From the IMG/VR virus record IMGVR_UViG_2724679138_000003: a stretch of 36,469 nucleotides of DNA; one strand, 5' to 3'. The stretch is from a virus. Its lineage: Duplodnaviria > Heunggongvirae > Uroviricota > Caudoviricetes. A model generated the notes under the pieces. The model was given only the letters and a program-made list of their open reading frames with translations. It was not told where the DNA came from and made no database searches. Below are positions 5,997 to 16,049 of this stretch, piece by piece. The position numbers and the translations under genes are program-made. Every line of letters starts with the position of its first letter. Position 1 is the stretch's first letter.

Positions 5997-6326
5997 CTAT
6001 GCCACGACCTGTTCAAAATCTGCCGTTATGGTTACCCACAGCGCCCCCACGCTTGCCGACCATTTACGACAAACCACCCTGATCGGTTTCCAGTCATAAG
6101 GTGGCGTCCACTGAAATGCACGGACGCCACCGTGCCGTTCCAGAAAGGCTTTTAAAGATGGGTGTTCACATTTACGAACACGTATCGTCACGCTGTAAGT
6201 CGACAACTGGTTATTCAGTCCCGCCGCACGACGCTGTTCATAACCATCGCCCAGCTTCACTGTCACCACTTTCGGCTCTGATACCACATTCATATCCGGG
6301 CGCACTTTCCAGTGAAACGTCTCCAT
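5997..6326 (-). CDS. M: Minor tail protein M
   Basis: 109 aa lambda M-like (..KVRPDMNVVSEPKVVTVKLGDGYEQRRAAGLN..); start codon shares a base with the H stop. Confidence 0.85.
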   Translation of the reverse strand: METFHWKVRPDMNVVSEPKVVTVKLGDGYEQRRAAGLNNQLSTYSVTIRVRKCEHPSLKAFLERHGGVRAFQWTPPYDWKPIRVVCRKWSASVGALWVTITADFEQVVA

Positions 6327-9300
6327 TACCGATATGCTCCACTTAACCGACCACCATCACGGGCCTGCTGTTGCATAAAGTCCGCTGCCGCTTTTTTCCC
6401 GAGGTCATAAACCGCCTTCAGGGCAGCCGGACCTATCTGCCCGTTCGTGCCATCGTTATTGATCTCGATGTTGTACTGCGGGGAAAACATCGCCATACCT
6501 GAACCCCCAATATCCGCCACAACCCCCAGCTTACCGTCAGCACCACGACGCAATGGCAGAATGGCTTCAGGTCCCGCTTCCCCCATCACACCCGCGCCTT
6601 TTGCAAAAGCAAAAAACGTCGGACGGTTAACCACCGTGCCACTGTAACGACTCAAATCAGCAGACTGATAAATCCCCCCATTGGCATTCAGGGAAAGGCT
6701 GCTGAGATCAAATCCCAGTACACTGCCAATCCCTTTTATCGATTTCATCATGGTTGCCTGCGCCAGGATTTTCGCCATATCTGACAGCACAGAAGAGGTG
6801 AAGGATTTGAAATTGAGTTTGCCGGTAGTGACAAAAGTTGCCAGGCCATTTCCCATGTTGCTGAAGGCTGACGAGAACACCTGTTCTGCTGTTTCTGCCG
6901 TATTATCTGCATCCACGGTAAAATCCTGAAATGCACGCAGGACTCCGTTTTTCCAGTTACCCTGCACAACTTCAAGCTGTTGCCAGTAACGGCGATTCTC
7001 ATTCAGTTGTCGGTTCAGGCTCTCCGTCAGCGCCTGCTCGGCCTTTCTGTAGTCATCCGTGTTATATGTCCCTTTCTGCTCACTATCCCGCCTCAACTGC
7101 TCCAGCTGTTGCTGGTATTTCTGGCGAAGACTCAGTTGTACCTGATATCGCTGTCGCTGCTGATCACCCATACCCACCGTGGCGATATCCAGGTCATGTT
7201 GCTGACGCTGAGCGCGCTCTTCTTCAGCCAGTTGACTGGTCAGCTGAATTGTTTTTTTCTTCAGCTCGTTGAGTGCCGTCTGTTTCTGAAGCTCCTGCTG
7301 TTTTACATCCAGCAGCGTCAGTGCCTGAATCAGTTCATCTTTACGGGCCAGCACACTCTTTTCATCTGCCGTCAGTTTTTTCCCGTCCAGGTCGCTGATG
7401 CGCTGCTGCAGAGCCAGAAGCTGTTTATGCGCTTCTGTCATCCTTTCCGTGGCAATGCCTGCTGACTGTCTGGCAGCAGCAATCTGTCCTTCCACCTGTG
7501 CCTGTTGCTGACTGTACTGCAGCAATAACCGGGTGGCCTCATCATTACGGGTTTCGCGTGTTTTTTTCTTACCGGATGCCAGGGCTTTCTCGTAACGTTC
7601 ATTTTCACGTTGTATCGCCGCATCCCTGACAGCCTGATCGGCGTACTGCATGGCATTAATACGCGCAATTTCACGCTGATGTCGTGCAGCTTCCGTTTCA
7701 TTCATCCGGTTCAGTGCAGCATTTTCAGCATTACGGCGTTTCTGTTGCTCCTGATAATTCCGCTCTGCCTGCTCTTTTGCATCCTGCAAATCCTTCTGGC
7801 GTTTTTTCTCCTGAAGATCGTTAAGACGCTGCTGATCGTATTCAACCTGAGAAGATGATGCCGTCCAGGGGAGTCTTTTCGCCCGCGACACTTTCTCCTG
7901 TAAAGCGGCAATCTGTTCATCCAGCGAGTCTTCACGACCAATATTCATGGCCGCATCCCAGAAACGACTCCATAAATCAGACAGATACTTCAGCGTACTG
8001 CCCAGCGCATTGAGGTTATTATCAATATCCGCAGTACGCCGACCGGTTTCCTCTGCCAGTGCAGACATGGCTATCCGTGCAGCATCACTGGACCGCCCCT
8101 GATCCCCAAGGACGCGTATCTGCTCAAGCTGAGTGGCAGTAAGAAAATGCAGCTCATTGTCCAGAGCCTTCGCGGCATTTACAGGATCATCCTTCAGCCG
8201 CTTAAACTGATTTATGGTATCGCTGACCGACTGGCCAACCGATCGCTCCATCTGTGCGGCAGCTCTCGCCACCATACCGATATCGTTTCCACGAAATGCA
8301 CCACTCCCCACCACCTGAGCCAGCGCACCGGCTGCAGCATGTTGCGTAATACCATTCCCGGAAATAGCACGACTGAGCGTCCACAGCTGCCCGGCAGTGA
8401 CTCCGGCATAATGCCCCGTCAGCGACAACTGGCGGTTAAATTCTTCCCCCTCCTTCTGACCATCATACCAGGCTTTACCCAGACCATAGACGGCCGCGGC
8501 AATACCGCCAATAACCCCGCCCAGCATCATGCCTTTCGGTGACATCAGTGTGTCTATCCATCCGGCACGGTTAGCCAGCGTTATCCCGGATCCCCTCAGC
8601 GCACCTAAATTGCCGCGGGCCAGTTCACCTATCAGAACGCCTATCTCCTGGCGGGCCGCTGCACTTTTCAGACCCAGCGAATGCGTGGCTTTTCCTGCCT
8701 GCTCCATTTTGCGGATATACACTTCTGCAGCACTGCTTACCCCCAGCTGGGCAGCCTTAGCACGAAGCAACTCAGAAGAAGAAAGATTCTGGCGGGTTGC
8801 CTGCTCTTTAAGCTGACGGATAAACGCCACTTTCTGTCGGGTAGCCTCTTCCTCAGCCTGCGTAAGAACACGGGTTTTCGCCGTAACCTCAGAAATCAGC
8901 GCCAGATAATCCTGCTGACCAATCCCGCCACTGTTTCTGGCCTGTCGGATCTGCTGCTGAATACGCTGTAATTCCTGCAGCCCCGCACTGGCCTGTTTCA
9001 CACTGTCAATCTGACGATAAAACGCGGCAGCCGCTTTATCCTGAGCCTCCGCCAGAGCCATGGCCTGCGCCTGTTCCTCGCGCATTTTCTGGCTCAGTGC
9101 CTCCATACGCTGGCGGGTTTGCTCCACCTCGCGGGCCATGCGTTCATGAGCCTGTGCGCTCTTCTCCACCGTCTGCGCATGGACGGATGCGGCTGTTGCA
9201 GCCGAAGAAGCCGCCTGCATTGTCTGCCGGGCGGCCTGAGTCTGACGCTCCATAAAACGCTGCATACGGGCAGAAGACCGTTCTGCATCGCTGGCTGCAC

Positions 9301-9391
9301 CATTCAGAAGGTTTTTGATACGGGGAATTTCATTTTTAAACTCTGCCGCATCAATCCCCAAATCAATGACCAGGTTGGCTATCTGGTCCAT
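6326..9391 (-). CDS. H: Tail tape measure protein H
   Basis: First ATG at 9391, preceded by GGAGG. N-terminus MDQIANLVIDLGIDAAEFKN and C-terminus INNDGTNGQIGPAALKAVYD... resemble lambda H as recalled; long Q/R/E-rich coiled-coil centre; about 1021 aa. Confidence 0.85.
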   Translation of the reverse strand: MDQIANLVIDLGIDAAEFKNEIPRIKNLLNGAASDAERSSARMQRFMERQTQAARQTMQAASSAATAASVHAQTVEKSAQAHERMAREVEQTRQRMEALSQKMREEQAQAMALAEAQDKAAAAFYRQIDSVKQASAGLQELQRIQQQIRQARNSGGIGQQDYLALISEVTAKTRVLTQAEEEATRQKVAFIRQLKEQATRQNLSSSELLRAKAAQLGVSSAAEVYIRKMEQAGKATHSLGLKSAAARQEIGVLIGELARGNLGALRGSGITLANRAGWIDTLMSPKGMMLGGVIGGIAAAVYGLGKAWYDGQKEGEEFNRQLSLTGHYAGVTAGQLWTLSRAISGNGITQHAAAGALAQVVGSGAFRGNDIGMVARAAAQMERSVGQSVSDTINQFKRLKDDPVNAAKALDNELHFLTATQLEQIRVLGDQGRSSDAARIAMSALAEETGRRTADIDNNLNALGSTLKYLSDLWSRFWDAAMNIGREDSLDEQIAALQEKVSRAKRLPWTASSSQVEYDQQRLNDLQEKKRQKDLQDAKEQAERNYQEQQKRRNAENAALNRMNETEAARHQREIARINAMQYADQAVRDAAIQRENERYEKALASGKKKTRETRNDEATRLLLQYSQQQAQVEGQIAAARQSAGIATERMTEAHKQLLALQQRISDLDGKKLTADEKSVLARKDELIQALTLLDVKQQELQKQTALNELKKKTIQLTSQLAEEERAQRQQHDLDIATVGMGDQQRQRYQVQLSLRQKYQQQLEQLRRDSEQKGTYNTDDYRKAEQALTESLNRQLNENRRYWQQLEVVQGNWKNGVLRAFQDFTVDADNTAETAEQVFSSAFSNMGNGLATFVTTGKLNFKSFTSSVLSDMAKILAQATMMKSIKGIGSVLGFDLSSLSLNANGGIYQSADLSRYSGTVVNRPTFFAFAKGAGVMGEAGPEAILPLRRGADGKLGVVADIGGSGMAMFSPQYNIEINNDGTNGQIGPAALKAVYDLGKKAAADFMQQQARDGGRLSGAYR

Positions 9392-9725
9392 AACGCACAC
9401 CTCCGGAAATACCTTCCCCAAGATGCATCAGTTCTTCGTCCGTTCGCTCCGGTATCCCGTTCTCTTCCGGTAAAAGGCTGAAATCAGCCACCGCAGCATC
9501 ACTGCTACCGGACACCATTCTCACGATCAATGCCTTCAGCGAGGCAAACTGCGCATCCATCCACACATCACTGAAGCTCTGCATCCGGAAATAATCGCCC
9601 CACTCACCAAGCTCAGTGGCCGACATTTCCGACAGCATCCGCCGCCAGTCTGCCCGCCGGAACTCCCGGGCAAGCCGCATGACAAACTGCATTTCCCGCG
9701 TCAGGACTTTTCCGGCGTCAGCACC
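9363..9725 (-). CDS. T: Tail assembly chaperone GT, T segment reached by -1 frameshift from G
   Basis: ORF 9363-9692 sits in the -1 frame relative to G. The -1 frame is open upstream to a TGA at 9726-9728, giving a 25-nt overlap with the G 3' end that contains CCGGAAAAG. Confidence 0.7.
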   Translation of the reverse strand, partial: GADAGKVLTREMQFVMRLAREFRRADWRRMLSEMSATELGEWGDYFRMQSFSDVWMDAQFASLKALIVRMVSGSSDAAVADFSLLPEENGIPERTDEELMHLGEGISGGVRYGPDSQPGH

Positions 9726-10087
9726 TCATGCTCCAAATCCCCGGCATTCTCAATGACTCCCATACCGCTCAGCGACAGAACCATCTCCGCCCCCGCTCCC
9801 AGGGCATCATACGACCATGTTGTAATAACGGATGCGCAAAGCGTCTCAACATCCTGAGACTGTTCCGCATTCCACAGTGAGCGGGAAACCAGCCAGGCAT
9901 TGATATCCATCCCCATCCGCAGAAAAGCAATCTGTCGTTCAGCCTCCGGCAGTTCTCCCTCTTCGGCATCAAACTTTGCCGTTCGCTGCTGAACAAACGC
10001 CAGATATTCAATTCTCTGCAGCCCGGACAGCTCACTGAGCACCACGGACTGCTTTTCATAATTAAACGTGCCCTGTTTCAGAAACAT
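9701..10087 (-). CDS. G: Tail assembly chaperone G
   Basis: Start MFLKQGTFNYEKQ... at ATG 10087 with GGAG 6 nt upstream; ends ...LTPEKS; lambda G-like position between V and T/H. Confidence 0.8.
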   Translation of the reverse strand: MFLKQGTFNYEKQSVVLSELSGLQRIEYLAFVQQRTAKFDAEEGELPEAERQIAFLRMGMDINAWLVSRSLWNAEQSQDVETLCASVITTWSYDALGAGAEMVLSLSGMGVIENAGDLEHEVLTPEKS

Positions 10088-10103
10088 CATGTTCTCCACC
10101 TGC

Positions 10104-10127
10104 AAAAAAGCCCCGGATAACCGGGGC
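10104..10127 (-). terminator. Hairpin plus U-run between V and G (attenuator/terminator)
   Basis: Minus-strand GCCCCGG-ttat-CCGGGGC followed by TTTTTT, immediately after the V stop and before the G SD. Confidence 0.55.
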
Positions 10128-10147
10128 AAATGATGAGTATCGTCCTG

Positions 10148-10891
10148 TTAACCTGCGGCGCTGACAGCCACCGCAGCCACTGCCACAAAATCGCCGTCAG
10201 AAGTCATGCCCACAATGCTGACACTGCCCTGCTTCACGCCTTTCACCGTGGCCACAAGCCCGTTCAGGGTCACCGTGGCAGTCTGTGGATCTGTCGAATG
10301 CACACTGATCGCTTTGTCACTGGCTCCGTCAGGTTTTACTGTAAAGGTCAGCGTGGTGGTTGCTCCCACTTTTACACTGGCAGATGCCGGTGCCACCGTC
10401 AGCCCGGTAACGCTCACTGTTTCAGTGCCTTCCTCTGCCAGATACGGACGCCCCACACCGCTGATTTTCACTGTGCGGGTCATCACGTCTTTTGAGGCAA
10501 TGGTTTTACCCAGTGAGCTCAGCCAGCCACGGAAAACATCAACAGTGCCGTTGGGATATTTGATACGAAACGCGCAGACTTCACCGGAGTCGAACAACTG
10601 AACCAGTTTTTTCTGCCCGCTGTCACCCGGACGCCAGGCCAGCGTCGCCGAAGTATCACCGACGGATTTCTGCCCCTGGGTTGTCGTTTTCCAGTCTGCA
10701 TCTTCATCATCGAGATAAGTGTCATCTTCTGCATCAGCGGTCATTTCGCCAGGTTGCAGATCCTTCACCATCGCAAGACGCAGCCAGTCAGTGTCCGATA
10801 AAGGGTTCGCAAACGCATCGCCCTTGCCGGTGTACATCCAGAACGTCGTTCCCGCACCTTTCGTTTTTGCCAGTGGATTTGGTGTGGTCAT
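10148..10891 (-). CDS. V: Major tail protein V with C-terminal Ig-like domain
   Basis: ATG 10891 preceded by AGGAGG. MTTPNPLAKTKGAGTTFWMYTGKGDAFANPLSD... resembles lambda V as recalled; C-terminal TVxP/Ig-like repeats. Confidence 0.88.
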   Translation of the reverse strand: MTTPNPLAKTKGAGTTFWMYTGKGDAFANPLSDTDWLRLAMVKDLQPGEMTADAEDDTYLDDEDADWKTTTQGQKSVGDTSATLAWRPGDSGQKKLVQLFDSGEVCAFRIKYPNGTVDVFRGWLSSLGKTIASKDVMTRTVKISGVGRPYLAEEGTETVSVTGLTVAPASASVKVGATTTLTFTVKPDGASDKAISVHSTDPQTATVTLNGLVATVKGVKQGSVSIVGMTSDGDFVAVAAVAVSAAG

Positions 10892-10902
10892 TGCCACCTC
10901 CT

Positions 10903-11890: not shown

Positions 11891-12166
11891 TTACTCAATA
11901 AAGATCATTGGCTTATCGTTAAAACGTTCATGCCGTGTGACCGTCCATTGTTGTCCGTCATAAACAACGCGATCCCCGCGCCGTGGGCGGTATCCCGAAG
12001 AAAACACCACCAGAGAGACCGCAGGTCCGGACAGAGCATTCAGCTCTGCCAGTGTTTCTCCCGGGATCACAGTCATATCGACATCATTAATCGAGGCTGT
12101 CTTTCCCATCTTTCTGACCGTGATAGCATCCATACGCGCTGCCAGCCGGGAAAAGGGATCAGACAT
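11891..12166 (-). CDS. Head-tail joining protein (FII-like)
   Basis: 91 aa; position between head decoration gene and Z; ...RGDRVVYDGQQWTVTRHE... resembles the lambda FII C-terminal motif as recalled. Confidence 0.6.
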   Translation of the reverse strand: MSDPFSRLAARMDAITVRKMGKTASINDVDMTVIPGETLAELNALSGPAVSLVVFSSGYRPRRGDRVVYDGQQWTVTRHERFNDKPMIFIE

Positions 12167-12482
12167 TGAGTTTTACCGGCACTTCTTCTGCACTGGTTCC
12201 GGCATCTGCCCAGACAACCCCGACCAGCGGATCAGAGCCGCTGTTAGTCAGCTGAACTTTTCCGGACTTCAGATAAACCTTCTTACCCGTTTTCATGTCA
12301 TCCGTTTTCAGCTTAGGCAGCATAAACACACCTTCGGTCATGCCGTCGCCTGTTTCACCCTGTGGAATATCGGTCAGCGCCACCGCAAAAACATCGCCCA
12401 CCTGCACCAGATCTCCGCTGCTGATGGCTGCACTGGCAACAATCGCCACCGTTTTTCCTTCTTCTACAAAATTCTTTGCCAT
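12159..12482 (-). CDS. Head decoration / capsid-associated protein (DUF2190-like)
   Basis: ATG 12482 with GGAG upstream; 107 aa, MAKNFVEEGKTVAIVASAAISSGDLVQVGDVFAVAL...; small Gly/Val-rich protein directly after the capsid gene. Confidence 0.6.
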   Translation of the reverse strand: MAKNFVEEGKTVAIVASAAISSGDLVQVGDVFAVALTDIPQGETGDGMTEGVFMLPKLKTDDMKTGKKVYLKSGKVQLTNSGSDPLVGVVWADAGTSAEEVPVKLNV

Positions 12483-12525
12483 AACTGTCTCCGCACAGCC
12501 CCGTTCAGGGGCTGATTTCAGGTAC

Positions 12526-12548
12526 AAAAAAAGCCCTTACGGGCCATC
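12526..12548 (-). terminator. Hairpin plus U-run just past the capsid gene, followed by a second 7-bp hairpin (12496-12514)
   Basis: Minus-strand GGCCC-gtaa-GGGCT followed by TTTTTTT; then CAGCCCC-tgaac-GGGGCTG directly before the SD of the next gene. Confidence 0.5.
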
Positions 12549-12568: not shown

Positions 12569-14527
12569 TTACGCCGTACATTTCACCAGACCGCGGTGAT
12601 CAACTGGCGCGACACCGGCGTCAATACGCACTTTCGTTGTCACGCCATCCACACTGAAGCCCTCCATCTGATCAATATATGGCGTATCCACACCGTTGAG
12701 ATAAGCCACTTCAATCGTATCGGAGCCTTTTGACGCAGCCAGGTAGAAGGTGGTCTGGCTGTTATCATCAAGACGAGGCTCTGCAATAACGGTCGCAAAA
12801 TCTTTCACCGGGTTAATAATACCGGCGTTAATGTCAGCCCCCTTGACACTTGAGGAGCGAATGACCTGGTTAGCAACAGATTCCATCGCCGTCGGTACCA
12901 GTACGAACGCAGGACGAATATTCAGATGACGCTCCCCCTCTTTCTGAACGCGCATCAACTGGCGGGCTTTATCCAGCGATGCCACGTCCATTGCAGCGCT
13001 CTCCAGTACGTTTGCATGTTTCGCTTTATCGAACAGGCTTACATTATCTGTGGAGATTTTCGGGTTAGACGTCAGAATGGCATAAACCAGATCGGCAATA
13101 GTGGATTTCGCCGCACGGCCCAGCTTCATCGGGACATCGGTCAGCATATTCAGATCATCATTGATAATGGCCTGACGGGTGATACTGAACAGCTCGCCAT
13201 AGGTCGCCAGTGCAATAGTGGCCTGTTTATCTCCGGTGGTGACGTATTTATATTCCGCCCCTTCACGCACCTGACGCAGAGCACTGAAGCCCCCCATACC
13301 CACACGATGGGCAATTTTAAAATCAGACAACTGGCCTTTCCGCGTCCACTGTTCATAGGTTTCAGGGGCATCTTCCCAGCCCTGCAGAATGGCTTTGTTC
13401 GCAACATCCAGCAGAATATTACCGAAGTCAGACGTACTGTGTGTGAACGCCGCACCGACCATCTGCATCGGGTTATAACTGGAAACCCCAATACCCCGTT
13501 CAGTCAGTGACATACGGGCATATTCACGCAGGGTCATCCCGTTGTAGACATTATCACGTTCGGTTTTTTCAAATCCGGCACGCGCCATCAGCGCCTGGCG
13601 GATCCCGTCCCCCACAAAATTACCGTTACCGGCATAAATATGAGCCGGGGTATTTTTATTGGATGGCGTGGACTCTCGCCCCATCTCGTTCAACAGCTTC
13701 TCGCGGGCCTGCTCCAGCGAACACTCAGGATCGGCAAGGCACTGAGCCTGCAGCGCCTGATAACGCCCGCCAAACATGGCAAACAGATCATTAATACCGT
13801 TTACACGCGCTTTTTGCTCTGCCAGTACCTGCGCACGGATGCTGTTTTCATCCACCACGGGTGCTGCTGCCTGCACTGGCGTCCGGGGGGCTGCTGGTTC
13901 ATCATCCGGTACGCGTGGAGCACTGTTGCGTGGCGGAGTAATCATGTTTCGAATAGATTCCGGCATCTTTTTAAATTCCTCTGTACGTTTTGACTGAATA
14001 CATGCCATTGCCTTAACGGCTGGCGTCACCTGGTCAGCAAATCCATGAGCCAGACATTCGGCTCCGGACATCCAGGTCTCATCCGCCAGCATGGCAGCAA
14101 TTTCATCGGTGGTTTTCCCGGTTTTCTGTGCATAAGCGGGTAAGAGAACCGCCTCAACTTTATCGAGCAGGTCGGCATAGGTGCGCATGTCCTCCGCATC
14201 ACCGCCCGTAAAGCCAAATGGTTTATGAATCATCATGAAAGTGTTTTCCGGCATAATGACCGGGTTTCCCACCATCGCAATGACCGACGCCATTGATGCC
14301 GCCACTCCGTCGACATAAACGGTAATGGACGCACCATGTGTTTTCAGTGCATTAAAAATGGCGATGCCTTCAAAGACATCGCCACCCGGTGAATTGATAT
14401 GGAGATTAATGTGGGTGATATCGCCCAGTGCATTCAGATCACTGATAAACTGCTTCGCCGTAACACCCCAGAAACCAATCTCGTCATAAATATAAATATC
14501 CGCGTCACTCTGATGACCAGCCTGCAT
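12569..14527 (-). CDS. Prohead protease (ClpP/S49-like) - scaffold - major capsid protein fusion
   Basis: ATG 14527 lies 13 nt past the portal stop. N-terminal domain DADIYIYDEIGFWGVTAKQF...INSPGGDVFEGIAIFNALK is ClpP-like; central Pro/Ala-rich linker; C-terminal ~300 aa is capsid-like. The track ORF is extended upstream by read-through into the portal gene. Confidence 0.75.
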   Translation of the reverse strand: MQAGHQSDADIYIYDEIGFWGVTAKQFISDLNALGDITHINLHINSPGGDVFEGIAIFNALKTHGASITVYVDGVAASMASVIAMVGNPVIMPENTFMMIHKPFGFTGGDAEDMRTYADLLDKVEAVLLPAYAQKTGKTTDEIAAMLADETWMSGAECLAHGFADQVTPAVKAMACIQSKRTEEFKKMPESIRNMITPPRNSAPRVPDDEPAAPRTPVQAAAPVVDENSIRAQVLAEQKARVNGINDLFAMFGGRYQALQAQCLADPECSLEQAREKLLNEMGRESTPSNKNTPAHIYAGNGNFVGDGIRQALMARAGFEKTERDNVYNGMTLREYARMSLTERGIGVSSYNPMQMVGAAFTHSTSDFGNILLDVANKAILQGWEDAPETYEQWTRKGQLSDFKIAHRVGMGGFSALRQVREGAEYKYVTTGDKQATIALATYGELFSITRQAIINDDLNMLTDVPMKLGRAAKSTIADLVYAILTSNPKISTDNVSLFDKAKHANVLESAAMDVASLDKARQLMRVQKEGERHLNIRPAFVLVPTAMESVANQVIRSSSVKGADINAGIINPVKDFATVIAEPRLDDNSQTTFYLAASKGSDTIEVAYLNGVDTPYIDQMEGFSVDGVTTKVRIDAGVAPVDHRGLVKCTA

Positions 14528-14540
14528 CCTGAACCAGGAA

Positions 14541-16049
14541 TTATTCTTCGGACTGGTTGTTGGTGTGCTGCGGCTCCTGTCGTTTCGTTGCGGCACTGCT
14601 ACCTCCTTTATCACTGGCCGGATCGGTATCAAATACCAGATCCAGCTTGCGGTTTTCATCAATTTCGGCCTTGCGCCGACGTTTGACATCATCCGGATTA
14701 CGACCACCAGCACGTACCCAGTCTGATTCTGTCGCCGCTCCACCACGAATCTGGATTTTCCAGGCCTCAGCCTCCTTAACAGGGTCAATCCACGGCATCA
14801 CCGGTCCGGAATACACCGCGGTATACAGTGAAGAACGGTCAAGATCGCGGGGTAGCCTGATAACACCGGATGCCACAGCCTGTTTCAGCCAGGCACGGTA
14901 CATCGGGCGGGTGACGGCACCAATAAACCAGTCCTGCAGGATCAGGTAGCCATCAGTGGATTCAACCAGCTCCTGACGCTGGGCGCTGTAAGTGCCGTTA
15001 TAGTTGCGCGCAGTACTGGAAAAACTCAGACGACTGCCAGCCGCCACTGCACGCAACTGACCATTACGAAAAGTTTCAAGATTAGGATTGGGGCGATCCG
15101 ACTTCACCATTCCGATTTCTTCGCCGGGTTTCAGATCGTCGTAAATAATGCCTGGCTGAATGGTAAGCTCGCGTTCCTTATCCTTGCTGCCATTACCATC
15201 CGGTTCATAGCTCTGCCCGTCGCCTTTGCGGATGTACATCCCCAGAGCAGCGGCGATCCTTGCTGCAGTCAGCTCAGAATCTTCATACTCTTTCAGGGCA
15301 CTGAGGCGGATCAACACACCGGACAACAAAGACGTCCCGCGCATCTGGTGCAGACGGCGAACAAATTTAAGATGCAGCATTCGCTCTGCATCCACTTCTT
15401 TGGTTTCCATCTGCCGTCCGGATACGGGACGGCTTTTATACACCAGATATTTTTCGGGACGCCCCCAGTCATCAACAAACACGCCCTGATTCAGCCTGTT
15501 GCTCTCATCACTGGTCATGGGAATAAAGTCCGGCTCGAGCGCCTCCAGCCAGAAATGAACACCGGCAGAAGGCGTCAGGCTGTTTATGCGCCCGGAAACC
15601 ATCTGGGCAAACACCTCACCATCGCGCAGCCAGGTACGCAGCATCAGACGTTCCAGCATCGGACGGGTAAACTGCCCGGTGACTTCCGGGCTGACAGACC
15701 ATTCACTCCATCGGGTGCGAATCTCCGCAGCCAGGTCACGGGCAATGGCTCCATTGCGTAATACCGGATGTGGCTCGACAATAATTCCGTTTTTCCCCAC
15801 CACCCGTTCTTCCAGCTTGTCAAATACACCAATAACCAGATCGTGGTTGTTATCAAGGTAACGGGCCTGCTCACGTAACGACACGGCCCCGTACTGGCTT
15901 AACTGGTCGGCAGTTCGGTTTTCCCGCCGGGCTTTGTGTGTCCGCGTCGTTTTTACGGCCTCATAAGCCTGGATCACCGCACGGGAACGCAGCCTTGCCG
16001 CTTTCCATCCTGGTGAAAAAACGCCAATCACATCATCAAGAATTGCCAT
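14541..16049 (-). CDS. Portal protein (lambda gpB-like)
   Basis: About 502 aa; ATG 16049 overlaps the W stop (TGATG); position between W and protease/capsid. Confidence 0.8.
   Translation of the reverse strand: MAILDDVIGVFSPGWKAARLRSRAVIQAYEAVKTTRTHKARRENRTADQLSQYGAVSLREQARYLDNNHDLVIGVFDKLEERVVGKNGIIVEPHPVLRNGAIARDLAAEIRTRWSEWSVSPEVTGQFTRPMLERLMLRTWLRDGEVFAQMVSGRINSLTPSAGVHFWLEALEPDFIPMTSDESNRLNQGVFVDDWGRPEKYLVYKSRPVSGRQMETKEVDAERMLHLKFVRRLHQMRGTSLLSGVLIRLSALKEYEDSELTAARIAAALGMYIRKGDGQSYEPDGNGSKDKERELTIQPGIIYDDLKPGEEIGMVKSDRPNPNLETFRNGQLRAVAAGSRLSFSSTARNYNGTYSAQRQELVESTDGYLILQDWFIGAVTRPMYRAWLKQAVASGVIRLPRDLDRSSLYTAVYSGPVMPWIDPVKEAEAWKIQIRGGAATESDWVRAGGRNPDDVKRRRKAEIDENRKLDLVFDTDPASDKGGSSAATKRQEPQHTNNQSEE

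What the first reader, a model, noticed from the sequence alone, without database searches (positions are those of the whole stretch)
9692..9728. G-T programmed frameshift window with a non-lambda slippery sequence
The T ORF is in the -1 frame and is open for only 25 nt before the G stop, so the shift must occur there. The only Lys-codon slip site is G-GAA-AAG (CCGGAAAAG), one base different from lambda's G-GGA-AAG (established knowledge). This is a variant slippery heptamer.
Basis: partly seen in the sequence, partly recalled or inferred. Interest (0 to 1): 0.4.

Follow-up and report, generated by a model that had tools for sequence, protein, structure and literature searches.

The report
Known GGAAAAG frameshift site, tail-chaperone genes
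This is the ordinary ribosomal frameshift site that lets a lambda-like E. coli prophage make its G and G-T tail-assembly chaperones; its GGAAAAG slip sequence differs from lambda's by one base, but it is already annotated in phages N15 and LLS and is the commonest form in this gene family.

Summary
On the minus strand, gene G (Pfam Phage_TAC_2) ends at TGA 9703-9701. The T frame (Pfam Phage_tail_T) is the -1 frame and is open only from 9725, giving a 25-nt overlap. The only slip-capable sequence in that overlap is G-GAA-AAG (9713-9707). It sits at exactly the position of lambda's G-GGA-AAG. The conceptual 242-aa GT fusion aligns as one segment with lambda and N15 GT.

The heptamer is not new. 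GenBank records of N15 and LLS label GGAAAAG as the -1 frameshift site. Gifsy-2 has the identical ACGCCGGAAAAGTCCTGA, with T annotated as part of a frameshift hybrid. phi80, HK225 and Fels-1 share the heptamer.

Sixteen of 23 representative lineages carry GGAAAAG, and 49 of 71 family representatives end in Glu-Lys. Lambda's Gly-Lys form is the minority (4 of 71). The region occurs in 1849 of 5426 complete E. coli genomes, where G and T are annotated as separate genes.

Most likely mechanism: tandem -1 slippage of tRNA-Glu (GAA to GGA, central G.U) and tRNA-Lys (AAG to AAA). No downstream structure was found. An upstream GAGGTG is a possible, lineage-specific enhancer.

Low interest; the practical point is that most records omit the G-T join.

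The parts
9701..10090 (-). Gene G, the tail assembly chaperone. It is 129 aa from ATG 10090 (128 aa from ATG 10087, the PGAP start), with stop TGA at 9703-9701.
   Evidence: Pfam PF06894 Phage_TAC_2, E 7.4e-40. ORF list and sequence. PGAP names it 'phage tail assembly chaperone G'.
9707..9713 (-). Slippery heptamer G-GAA-AAG. The 0 frame reads Glu-Lys; after the -1 shift the tRNAs face GGA-AAA.
   Evidence: Sequence. Homologous position to lambda GGGAAAG. Conserved in 16 of 23 lineages and in all loci of this clade. The same heptamer is annotated as the frameshift site in N15 and LLS.
9701..9725 (-). The 25-nt stretch where the G frame and the open -1 (T) frame overlap. The shift must happen here.
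   Evidence: Computed. The same overlap is 19-85 nt in relatives and always contains the heptamer.
9726..9728 (-). TGA stop codon in the -1 frame that closes the T frame upstream.
9363..9707 (-). T-frame coding part of GT: 114 codons starting with GTC at 9707-9705, with stop at 9365-9363. Base 9707 is read twice. The conceptual GT is join(10090..9707, 9707..9363), 242 aa.
   Evidence: Pfam PF06223 Phage_tail_T, E 5.1e-15. The conceptual fusion aligns as a single segment with lambda GT (34% identity, E 1.5e-42) and N15 GT.
9690..9692 (-). ATG that database records use as the start of a stand-alone T gene. It is probably not a real initiation site.
   Evidence: PGAP and mEp460 records start T here. 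There is no Shine-Dalgarno pairing: -1.1 kcal/mol, against -7.0 for G and -13.3 for H. The ATG is not conserved; the first T-frame ATG lies 2-23 codons after the Lys in relatives.
9722..9727 (-). Shine-Dalgarno-like GAGGTG, 8 nt 5' of the heptamer. It is a possible lineage-specific stimulator (hypothesis only).
   Evidence: Anti-SD duplex -9.2 kcal/mol; only 2.3% of the window's 15-mers are as strong. It lies within the 6-17 nt range searched for such stimulators in E. coli (PMC4066793). It is absent from N15, phi80, HK225 and LLS.
10148..10897 (-). Upstream neighbour: the major tail tube protein (V-like), with a C-terminal Ig-like domain.
   Evidence: Pfam Phage_TTP_12, E 6.4e-67, and Big_2, E 2e-11.
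6326..9391 (-). Downstream neighbour: the tape measure protein (H-like). Its ATG at 9391 overlaps the end of T by 29 nt.
   Evidence: Pfam TMP_2, Tape_meas_lam_C and TMP_4. Strong SD GGAGGTG, -13.3 kcal/mol.

Best explanation
This is the G/GT programmed -1 ribosomal frameshift site of a lambda-like (mEp460/cdtI/Ayreon-type) E. coli prophage. Most ribosomes translate G to its TGA and make the 129-aa chaperone. A small fraction slip back one base on G-GAA-AAG, when GAA (tRNA-Glu) is in the P site and AAG (tRNA-Lys) is in the A site. After the slip, tRNA-Lys pairs perfectly with AAA. tRNA-Glu pairs with GGA through its first and third positions, with a G.U in the middle. Translation then continues with GTC CTG ACG... 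in the T frame, giving a 242-aa G-T fusion (...LTPEK-VLTREMQF...). By homology with lambda, the G part binds the tape measure protein and the T part recruits the tail tube protein. Shown here: the gene order, the homology, the frame relation, the single slip-capable site, and its conservation. Inferred: that slippage occurs, that both tRNAs slip together, and the G:GT ratio.
For: - **Family and gene order:** V-like, G, T and H-like genes lie in lambda order with Pfam hits to each.
- **Frame geometry:** T is in the -1 frame with a 25-nt overlap. In Salmonella relatives the overlap shrinks to 19 nt and still contains the heptamer.
- **Positional homology:** in all 23 representative lineages the slip Lys is followed by 11 T-frame codons and then LAREF. 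The conceptual GT gives one end-to-end alignment with lambda and N15 GT.
- **Conservation at the RNA level:** the motif is GG-N-AAA-R, with positions 0, 1, 3, 4 and 5 invariant, while the G tail just upstream is hypervariable. Position 0 is the wobble base of four different codons (CCG, GCG, GTG, CTG).
- **T is translated from the slip site:** T-frame residues directly after the Lys ([VA][LF]xxE.xF) are conserved, although the first ATG lies 2-23 codons downstream depending on lineage. ATG 9692 lacks an SD.
- **Prior annotation of the same heptamer:** N15 and LLS records label it as the -1 frameshift site, and Gifsy-2 has the identical junction.
- **Biophysics:** A-AAG is the most shift-prone tetramer in E. 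coli (PMC4066793). The AAG-to-AAA change in the A site is energetically favourable, and a single G.U mismatch costs only about 5 kJ/mol (PMC6787027).
- **Lambda needs little GT:** about 4% frameshifting, a 30:1 ratio (PMC3296357; PMC5009743).
Against: - No experimental measurement for this phage or, in the literature I could reach, for GGAAAAG in any G/T gene.
- In a reconstituted E. coli system without stimulators, AUG GAA AAG gave mainly 0-frame product and was described as unfavourable because of the second-position mismatch (PMC6924986).
- The A-AAG tetramer alone is barely above background without a stimulator.
- No significant downstream RNA structure was found here: z = -0.18 and +0.38.
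- All close database records annotate T as a separate gene starting at ATG 9692.
- Part of the G at position 0 can be explained by E. coli's preference for G-ending Pro, Ala, Leu and Val codons.
Confidence: 0.85

Rival explanations
1. The product is the same but the mechanism is single-tRNA slippage. Only tRNA-Lys slips on A-AAG, either in the A site without P-site re-pairing or in the P site after translocation. The preceding G-GA plays no pairing role.
For: The P-site codon varies among lineages (GAA, GGA, GCA), and GCA to GGC cannot re-pair in the middle. A-AAG is by far the best tetramer in E. coli, and C_AA.G still gave 0.93% with a pseudoknot. [quoted passage not shown]
Against: Positions 0 and 1 (GG) are invariant in 23 lineages, although position 0 is a synonymous site of four different codons. 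This is expected if the P-site tRNA must re-pair at its first position. All three P-site codons keep first- and third-position pairing after the shift. Tetramers without stimulators are barely shifty, and no stimulator structure is present.
Confidence: 0.2
2. T is made as an independent 109-aa protein from ATG 9692, as the records annotate it. This could be ordinary initiation or termination-reinitiation, since the ATG lies 8 nt after the G stop. No frameshift is needed.
For: An ATG lies 8 nt downstream of the G stop in the T frame. PGAP, mEp460 and cdtI records annotate T this way.
Against: SD pairing is essentially nil at -1.1 kcal/mol. The ATG is not conserved: in Gifsy-2, phi80, LLS and others the first T-frame ATG is 23 codons in, inside the conserved LAREFRRPDWRRM motif. 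T-frame residues upstream of the ATG are conserved. The -1 frame is always open back to the heptamer. In lambda the G part of GT is what binds the tape measure protein (PMC5009743), so free T would lack that function.
Confidence: 0.05
3. The fusion arises by transcriptional slippage of RNA polymerase on the A run, not by ribosomal slippage.
For: The heptamer contains a run of four A.
Against: Four A is far shorter than the homopolymer runs known to cause productive transcriptional slippage (established knowledge; reviewed in PMC5009743). The conserved feature is GG-N-AAA-R in a fixed codon phase, not run length.
Confidence: 0.01

Closest known systems
Bacteriophage lambda G / GT (-1 PRF at G-GGA-AAG; Levin, Hendrix & Casjens 1993, as cited in PMC5009743 and PMC3296357)
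   Same: Same gene order (V-G-T-H), the same Pfam families for G and T, a -1 shift near the end of G, and the slip Lys at the identical position relative to the T domain. No required downstream structure is evident.
   Different: The heptamer differs by one base (GAA instead of GGA in the P site). P-site re-pairing therefore has a central G.U, and the fusion reads Glu-Lys rather than Gly-Lys. The G stop is 3 nt after the heptamer instead of 15 nt. G is only 35% identical. An SD-like GAGGTG lies upstream here and not in lambda.
Phage N15 genes 14/15, phage LLS genes 11/12, and phi80, HK225, Gifsy-2 and Fels-1 (GGAAAAG G/T junctions)
   Same: Identical heptamer GGAAAAG at the homologous position. 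It is explicitly annotated as the -1 frameshift site in N15 (NC_001901 10027..10033) and LLS (PQ299149 9222..9228, with a joined CDS). Gifsy-2 has the identical 18-nt junction ACGCCGGAAAAGTCCTGA.
   Different: N15, phi80, HK225 and LLS have GCG or GTG before the heptamer, a stop 15 nt downstream, and no upstream SD-like element. Their G proteins are about 35% identical to this one. The close relatives of the window (mEp460, cdtI, Ayreon and RefSeq E. coli prophages) do not annotate the frameshift.
E. coli dnaX (A-AAA-AAG with an upstream SD-like element and a downstream hairpin)
   Same: The A-site AAG-to-AAA slip uses the single E. coli tRNA-Lys. An SD-like sequence lies upstream at a comparable aligned distance: GAGGTG plus 8 nt here, AGGGAG plus 10 nt in dnaX (spacing from the mRNA printed in PMC6924986).
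   Different: dnaX has a fully slippery P-site codon and a strong downstream stem-loop, giving 50-80% frameshifting. Here the P-site codon mismatches and no hairpin is detectable. [quoted passage not shown]
Non-canonical bacterial -1 sites with only the A-site codon slippery (B. subtilis cdd CGA-AAG, Mejlhede et al. 1999, and the A_AAG tetramer class of Sharma et al. 2014)
   Same: The A-AAG core with a P-site codon that cannot fully re-pair. A-AAG is the most efficient tetramer in E. coli. The cdd reference is listed in PMC5009743.
   Different: Here the P-site tRNA keeps two of three pairs plus a G.U, so the site is intermediate between a tetramer and a canonical heptamer. The cdd details rest on the cited title and my own knowledge and were not re-read.

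Membership tests
Lambda-type G/GT tail assembly chaperone with -1 programmed frameshift | Two overlapping ORFs lie between the major tail tube gene and the tape measure gene. | tested here: met
   V-like gene (Phage_TTP_12) at 10148-10897, G at 9701-10090, T frame at 9363-9725, H-like gene (TMP_2, Tape_meas_lam_C) at 6326-9391, all on the minus strand.
Lambda-type G/GT tail assembly chaperone with -1 programmed frameshift | The upstream ORF is homologous to gpG. | tested here: met
   PF06894 Phage_TAC_2, E 7.4e-40, covering profile positions 1-119 of 126. It is 35% identical to lambda G.
Lambda-type G/GT tail assembly chaperone with -1 programmed frameshift | The downstream ORF is homologous to gpT and lies in the -1 frame relative to G. 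| tested here: met
   PF06223 Phage_tail_T, E 5.1e-15, full profile. The -1 frame relation was computed.
Lambda-type G/GT tail assembly chaperone with -1 programmed frameshift | A slip-prone sequence lies in the overlap, at the position homologous to lambda's. | tested here: met
   G-GAA-AAG at 9713-9707. There are 11 codons between the Lys and LAREF in all 23 lineages, including lambda.
Lambda-type G/GT tail assembly chaperone with -1 programmed frameshift | The downstream ORF lacks its own conserved start and ribosome-binding site. | tested here: met
   ATG 9692 has no SD (-1.1 kcal/mol) and is not conserved across lineages.
Lambda-type G/GT tail assembly chaperone with -1 programmed frameshift | A G-T fusion protein is made at a few percent of G and is required for tail assembly. 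| not testable with these tools
   This needs protein detection or genetics. Only the conceptual 242-aa fusion and its colinearity with lambda and N15 GT could be shown.
Canonical X-XXY-YYZ tandem-slippage heptamer | Both P-site and A-site tRNAs can re-pair in the -1 frame with mismatches only at wobble positions. | tested here: not met
   The A site meets it (AAG to AAA). The P site does not: GAA to GGA puts a G.U at the second codon position (sequence). The same point is made for AUG GAA AAG in PMC6924986. The site fits the 'twofour' (XXYYYY) class listed by PRFect (PMC10885494).
dnaX-type stimulated -1 frameshift signal | There is an upstream SD-like element at a stimulatory distance. | tested here: inconclusive
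   GAGGTG lies 8 nt upstream at -9.2 kcal/mol. Similar elements occur in several GGAAAAG lineages, but not in N15, phi80, HK225, LLS, L115 or Fels-1.
dnaX-type stimulated -1 frameshift signal | There is a downstream stem-loop or pseudoknot 5-9 nt after the heptamer. | tested here: not met
   The 50-nt and 80-nt downstream segments fold no better than shuffles: z = +0.38 and -0.18.

The most novel reading that the evidence does not exclude
Across the gpG family the slip motif is GG-N-AAA-R. The P-site codon's middle base is free (A, G or C), while the wobble G of the preceding codon is fixed. This would mean the family uses a relaxed rule in which the P-site tRNA needs only first- and third-position pairing. 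Lineages with the weaker GGAAAAG or GGCAAAA forms may tune GT output with accessory signals, such as the dnaX-like upstream GAGGTG seen here or an adjacent stop codon. With GAA-AAG, both slipping tRNAs carry mnm5s2U34. GT output, and hence prophage tail assembly, could then be more sensitive to host tRNA thiolation than in lambda.
Probability: 0.25. Interest if true: 0.3.

Novelty: already known. Interest (0 to 1): 0.12.

Why it matters
Mechanistically it adds little. The same heptamer at the same junction is already labelled as the frameshift site in the N15 and LLS records, and it is the family's commonest form.

The practical point is annotation. This prophage region is in about a third of complete E. 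coli genomes (1849 of 5426). In RefSeq and in most phage records, G and T are annotated as separate genes and T is given an unsupported ATG start. The true GT product is therefore missing from protein databases.

A minor scientific point concerns a sequence that reconstituted translation systems treat as poorly slippery (PMC6924986). Natural selection has kept it as the preferred site in a family that needs only a few percent frameshifting. That makes it a convenient natural test case for P-site mismatch tolerance.

Tried and rejected
- **Downstream stimulatory RNA structure:** the 50-nt and 80-nt segments after the heptamer fold no better than shuffles. Rejected.
- **Upstream SD-like element as a general compensator for the weaker heptamer:** it is strong in this clade and a few others but absent from N15, phi80, HK225 and LLS, which also use GGAAAAG. 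It is kept only as a lineage-specific hypothesis.
- **Other slip sites in the 25-nt overlap:** every P/A codon pair was checked by eye. None other than GAA-AAG (or AAG alone) can re-pair.
- **Slippage at the TCC-TGA stop:** rejected, because N15-type and lambda-type lineages have the stop 15 nt further on while the heptamer stays at the same place relative to T.
- **Literature:**
  - Xu, Hendrix & Duda 2004 (DOI and PubMed id) is not held. I could not confirm whether GGAAAAG is tabulated or tested there.
  - Full-text searches for GGAAAAG or 'GAA AAG' with phage and tail terms found only the EF-G study.
- **Uninformative scans:**
  - The IMG/VR scan with lambda G returned only 99-100% identical copies.
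  - The first IMG/VR scan with the alignment returned only copies 99-100% identical to the window.
- **tRNA genes in the window:** none.

Full report
**1. What is in the sequence**

The relevant genes are on the minus strand. An ORF with a strong match to Pfam PF06894 (Phage_TAC_2, lambda gpG; E 7.4e-40) runs from ATG 10090 or 10087 to TGA 9703-9701. The next reading frame matches PF06223 (Phage_tail_T; E 5.1e-15).

That second frame is the -1 frame of G. It is closed by TGA at 9728-9726 and open from 9725, so the two frames overlap for exactly 25 nt, 9725-9701.

The flanking genes are a lambda-V-like tail tube gene (Phage_TTP_12 plus Big_2) upstream and a lambda-H-like tape measure gene downstream.

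**2. The slip site**

In the overlap the G-frame codons are (G)GTG CTG ACG CCG GAA AAG TCC TGA. I went through each adjacent codon pair. Only G-GAA-AAG (9713-9707) lets the A-site tRNA re-pair perfectly after a -1 shift (AAG to AAA). There the P-site tRNA also keeps two pairs plus a central G.U (GAA to GGA).

Lambda has GCG GGA AAG, one base different.

The heptamer alone is not statistically remarkable: 9 copies in the window against 5.6 +/- 2.3 expected. Its weight comes from frame, position and conservation.

**3. Homology of position**

After the slip Lys, lambda reads VFDGELSFALKLARE and the window reads VLTREMQFVMRLARE, in the same register. In all 23 representative lineages I collected, exactly 11 T-frame codons separate the Lys from the conserved LAREF motif. 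These lineages came from GTDB genomes, IMG/VR contigs and named phages.

The conceptual fusion join(10090..9707, 9707..9363) is 242 aa. It aligns as a single segment across the junction with lambda GT (34% identity, E 1.5e-42) and with N15 GT (35%).

**4. Conservation**

About 190 loci of the window's own clade all carry CCGGAAAAG, while the sequence just upstream varies. These loci are from E. coli, Shigella, E. ruysiae and Salmonella, with G proteins 55-100% identical.

The overlap length varies from 19 to 85 nt among relatives and always contains the heptamer.

Over the 23 representatives the motif is GG-N-AAA-R. Positions 0, 1, 3, 4 and 5 are invariant. Position 2 is A in 16 lineages, G in 4 and C in 3. 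The G tail immediately upstream is hypervariable.

Position 0 is the wobble base of four different codons (CCG, GCG, GTG, CTG). This suggests an RNA-level constraint consistent with first-position re-pairing of the P-site tRNA. Part of it could instead reflect E. coli's preference for G-ending codons, and the lineages are not independent.

**5. T is not independently initiated**

The ATG at 9692 that PGAP and several phage records use as the T start has essentially no Shine-Dalgarno pairing. Its value is -1.1 kcal/mol, against -7.0 for G and -13.3 for H.

In relatives the first T-frame ATG lies anywhere from 2 to 23 codons after the Lys. In Gifsy-2, phi80, LLS and others it falls inside the conserved LAREFRRPDWRRM motif. 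The T-frame residues right after the Lys ([VA][LF]xxE.xF) are nevertheless conserved. This is what one expects if they are translated as part of a fusion that begins at the slip site.

**6. Stimulators**

No downstream structure stands out. The 50-nt and 80-nt segments fold no better than shuffles, with z = +0.38 and -0.18.

Upstream, GAGGTG (9727-9722) lies 8 nt before the heptamer. It pairs with the anti-SD at -9.2 kcal/mol, a strength reached by 2.3% of the window's 15-mers.

When both are aligned on the full SD consensus, its distance to the heptamer is within one base of the dnaX arrangement (dnaX mRNA printed in PMC6924986). It also falls in the 6-17 nt range used to search for such stimulators (PMC4066793).

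Comparable elements occur in several GGAAAAG lineages:
- L099 and L108, at -10.0 kcal/mol;
- L011, at -11.1 kcal/mol;
- L097 and Gifsy-2.

N15, phi80, HK225 and LLS have the same heptamer and nothing of the kind. None of the four GGGAAAG lineages has one either. I therefore treat it as a possible lineage-specific enhancer, not as part of the defining signal.

**7. Mechanism**

The most likely mechanism is tandem -1 slippage with tRNA-Glu on GAA in the P site and tRNA-Lys on AAG in the A site. Published work bears on it as follows.

- In E. coli, A-AAG is by far the most shift-prone tetramer, and G_GGA_AAG is among the three best heptamers (PMC4066793).
- The AAG-to-AAA change in the A site is energetically favourable, and a single G.U mismatch costs only about 5 kJ/mol (PMC6787027).
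- Against high efficiency: in a reconstituted system without stimulators, AUG GAA AAG gave mainly 0-frame product and was called unfavourable because of the second-position mismatch (PMC6924986).
- Lambda needs only about 4% frameshifting, a 30:1 ratio (PMC3296357; PMC5009743). A weakly slippery site is therefore compatible with function.
- Both tRNA-Glu and tRNA-Lys carry the 2-thiouridine-34 modification that modulates lambda G/GT frameshifting. This site may be at least as sensitive to host thiolation.

A single-tRNA (Lys-only) slip is a live mechanistic variant. Independent initiation of T and transcriptional slippage are unlikely.

**8. Comparison with what is known**

The heptamer is not new.
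- **N15:** GenBank NC_001901 carries a misc_feature 'slippery sequence for -1 translational frameshift' at 10027..10033, which reads GGAAAAG.
- **Gifsy-2:** it has the identical ACG CCG GAA AAG TCC TGA junction, and its T homologue is annotated as 'part of G+G' frameshift hybrid protein'.
- **phi80, HK225 and Fels-1:** they share the heptamer.
- **PRFect:** the paper lists a 'twofour' (XXYYYY) motif class among tail-chaperone frameshift sites (PMC10885494).

A profile search of 1.84 billion cluster representatives found 71 near-full-length gpG-family proteins. Of these, 49 end in Glu-Lys followed by 0-8 residues, and only 4 have lambda's Gly-Lys. Lambda's heptamer is thus the minority form, and the 'non-lambda' one is the norm.

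**9. Verdict**

The feature is an already known kind and an already annotated sequence variant.

The window's prophage occurs in 1849 of 5426 complete E. coli genomes. Its records, like those of its close phage relatives (mEp460, cdtI, Ayreon), annotate G and T separately and omit the GT join. The useful outcome is therefore an annotation correction rather than a discovery.

No experiment on this phage was found, and the key 2004 survey could not be read. The existence and level of GT here therefore remain inferred.

Noticed in passing
window 10110-10127 (minus strand): A strong intrinsic-terminator hairpin, GCCCCGG-TTAT-CCGGGGC followed by TTTTTT, sits in the 57-nt gap between the tail tube gene V and G. 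The same spot is annotated as a terminator or stem-loop in the mEp460, Ayreon, N15 and HK225 records. It would lower G/GT/H transcription relative to V.
   Followed up: partly
L013 (Ewingella americana) and L109-L112 (IMG/VR), G/T junction: A third slip variant occurs at the homologous position: CTG GCA AAA TAG. This is GGCAAAA with the G stop codon immediately after the Lys codon. P-site GCA to GGC cannot pair in the middle, so it may be an A-AAA slip helped by the adjacent stop.
   Followed up: partly
23 representative G/T junctions (window, L003, L011-L016, L097-L129, L274-L279): The family-wide motif is GG-N-AAA-R, with the middle base of the P-site codon free (A 16, G 4, C 3). The wobble G of the preceding codon is invariant across four different codons.
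   Followed up: partly
window 9363-9391 (minus strand): The tape measure gene starts at ATG 9391, with a strong SD GGAGGTG at -13.3 kcal/mol. This lies inside the last 29 nt of the T frame, so GT termination and H initiation overlap.
   Followed up: no
window 12569-14788 (minus strand): A 739-aa ORF appears from its translation to join a ClpP/S49-type prohead protease region (NSPGGDVFEG...) to a major capsid protein in one reading frame. It was not tested with Pfam.
   Followed up: no
proteins P0031 (215 aa) and P0046 (212 aa): Two database proteins carry both the G and T Pfam domains in one frame, through internal deletions that remove the G tail. P0046 reads ...WSYDAGKVLTREM, that is, the T-frame Gly-Lys. 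They are probably from decayed prophages making only a GT-like fusion.
   Followed up: no
window 9300-10200 compared with the E. coli genome collection: The G-T region is present at 95% identity or more in 1849 of 5426 complete E. coli genomes, with up to 6 copies per genome. It is one of the commonest prophage tail modules in the species.
   Followed up: no
window 8689-8695 and 12257-12263 (minus strand): Further GGAAAAG copies lie on the coding strand, inside the tape measure gene and inside the 122-aa ORF 12159-12527. Their frame and any -1 ORF were not examined.
   Followed up: no
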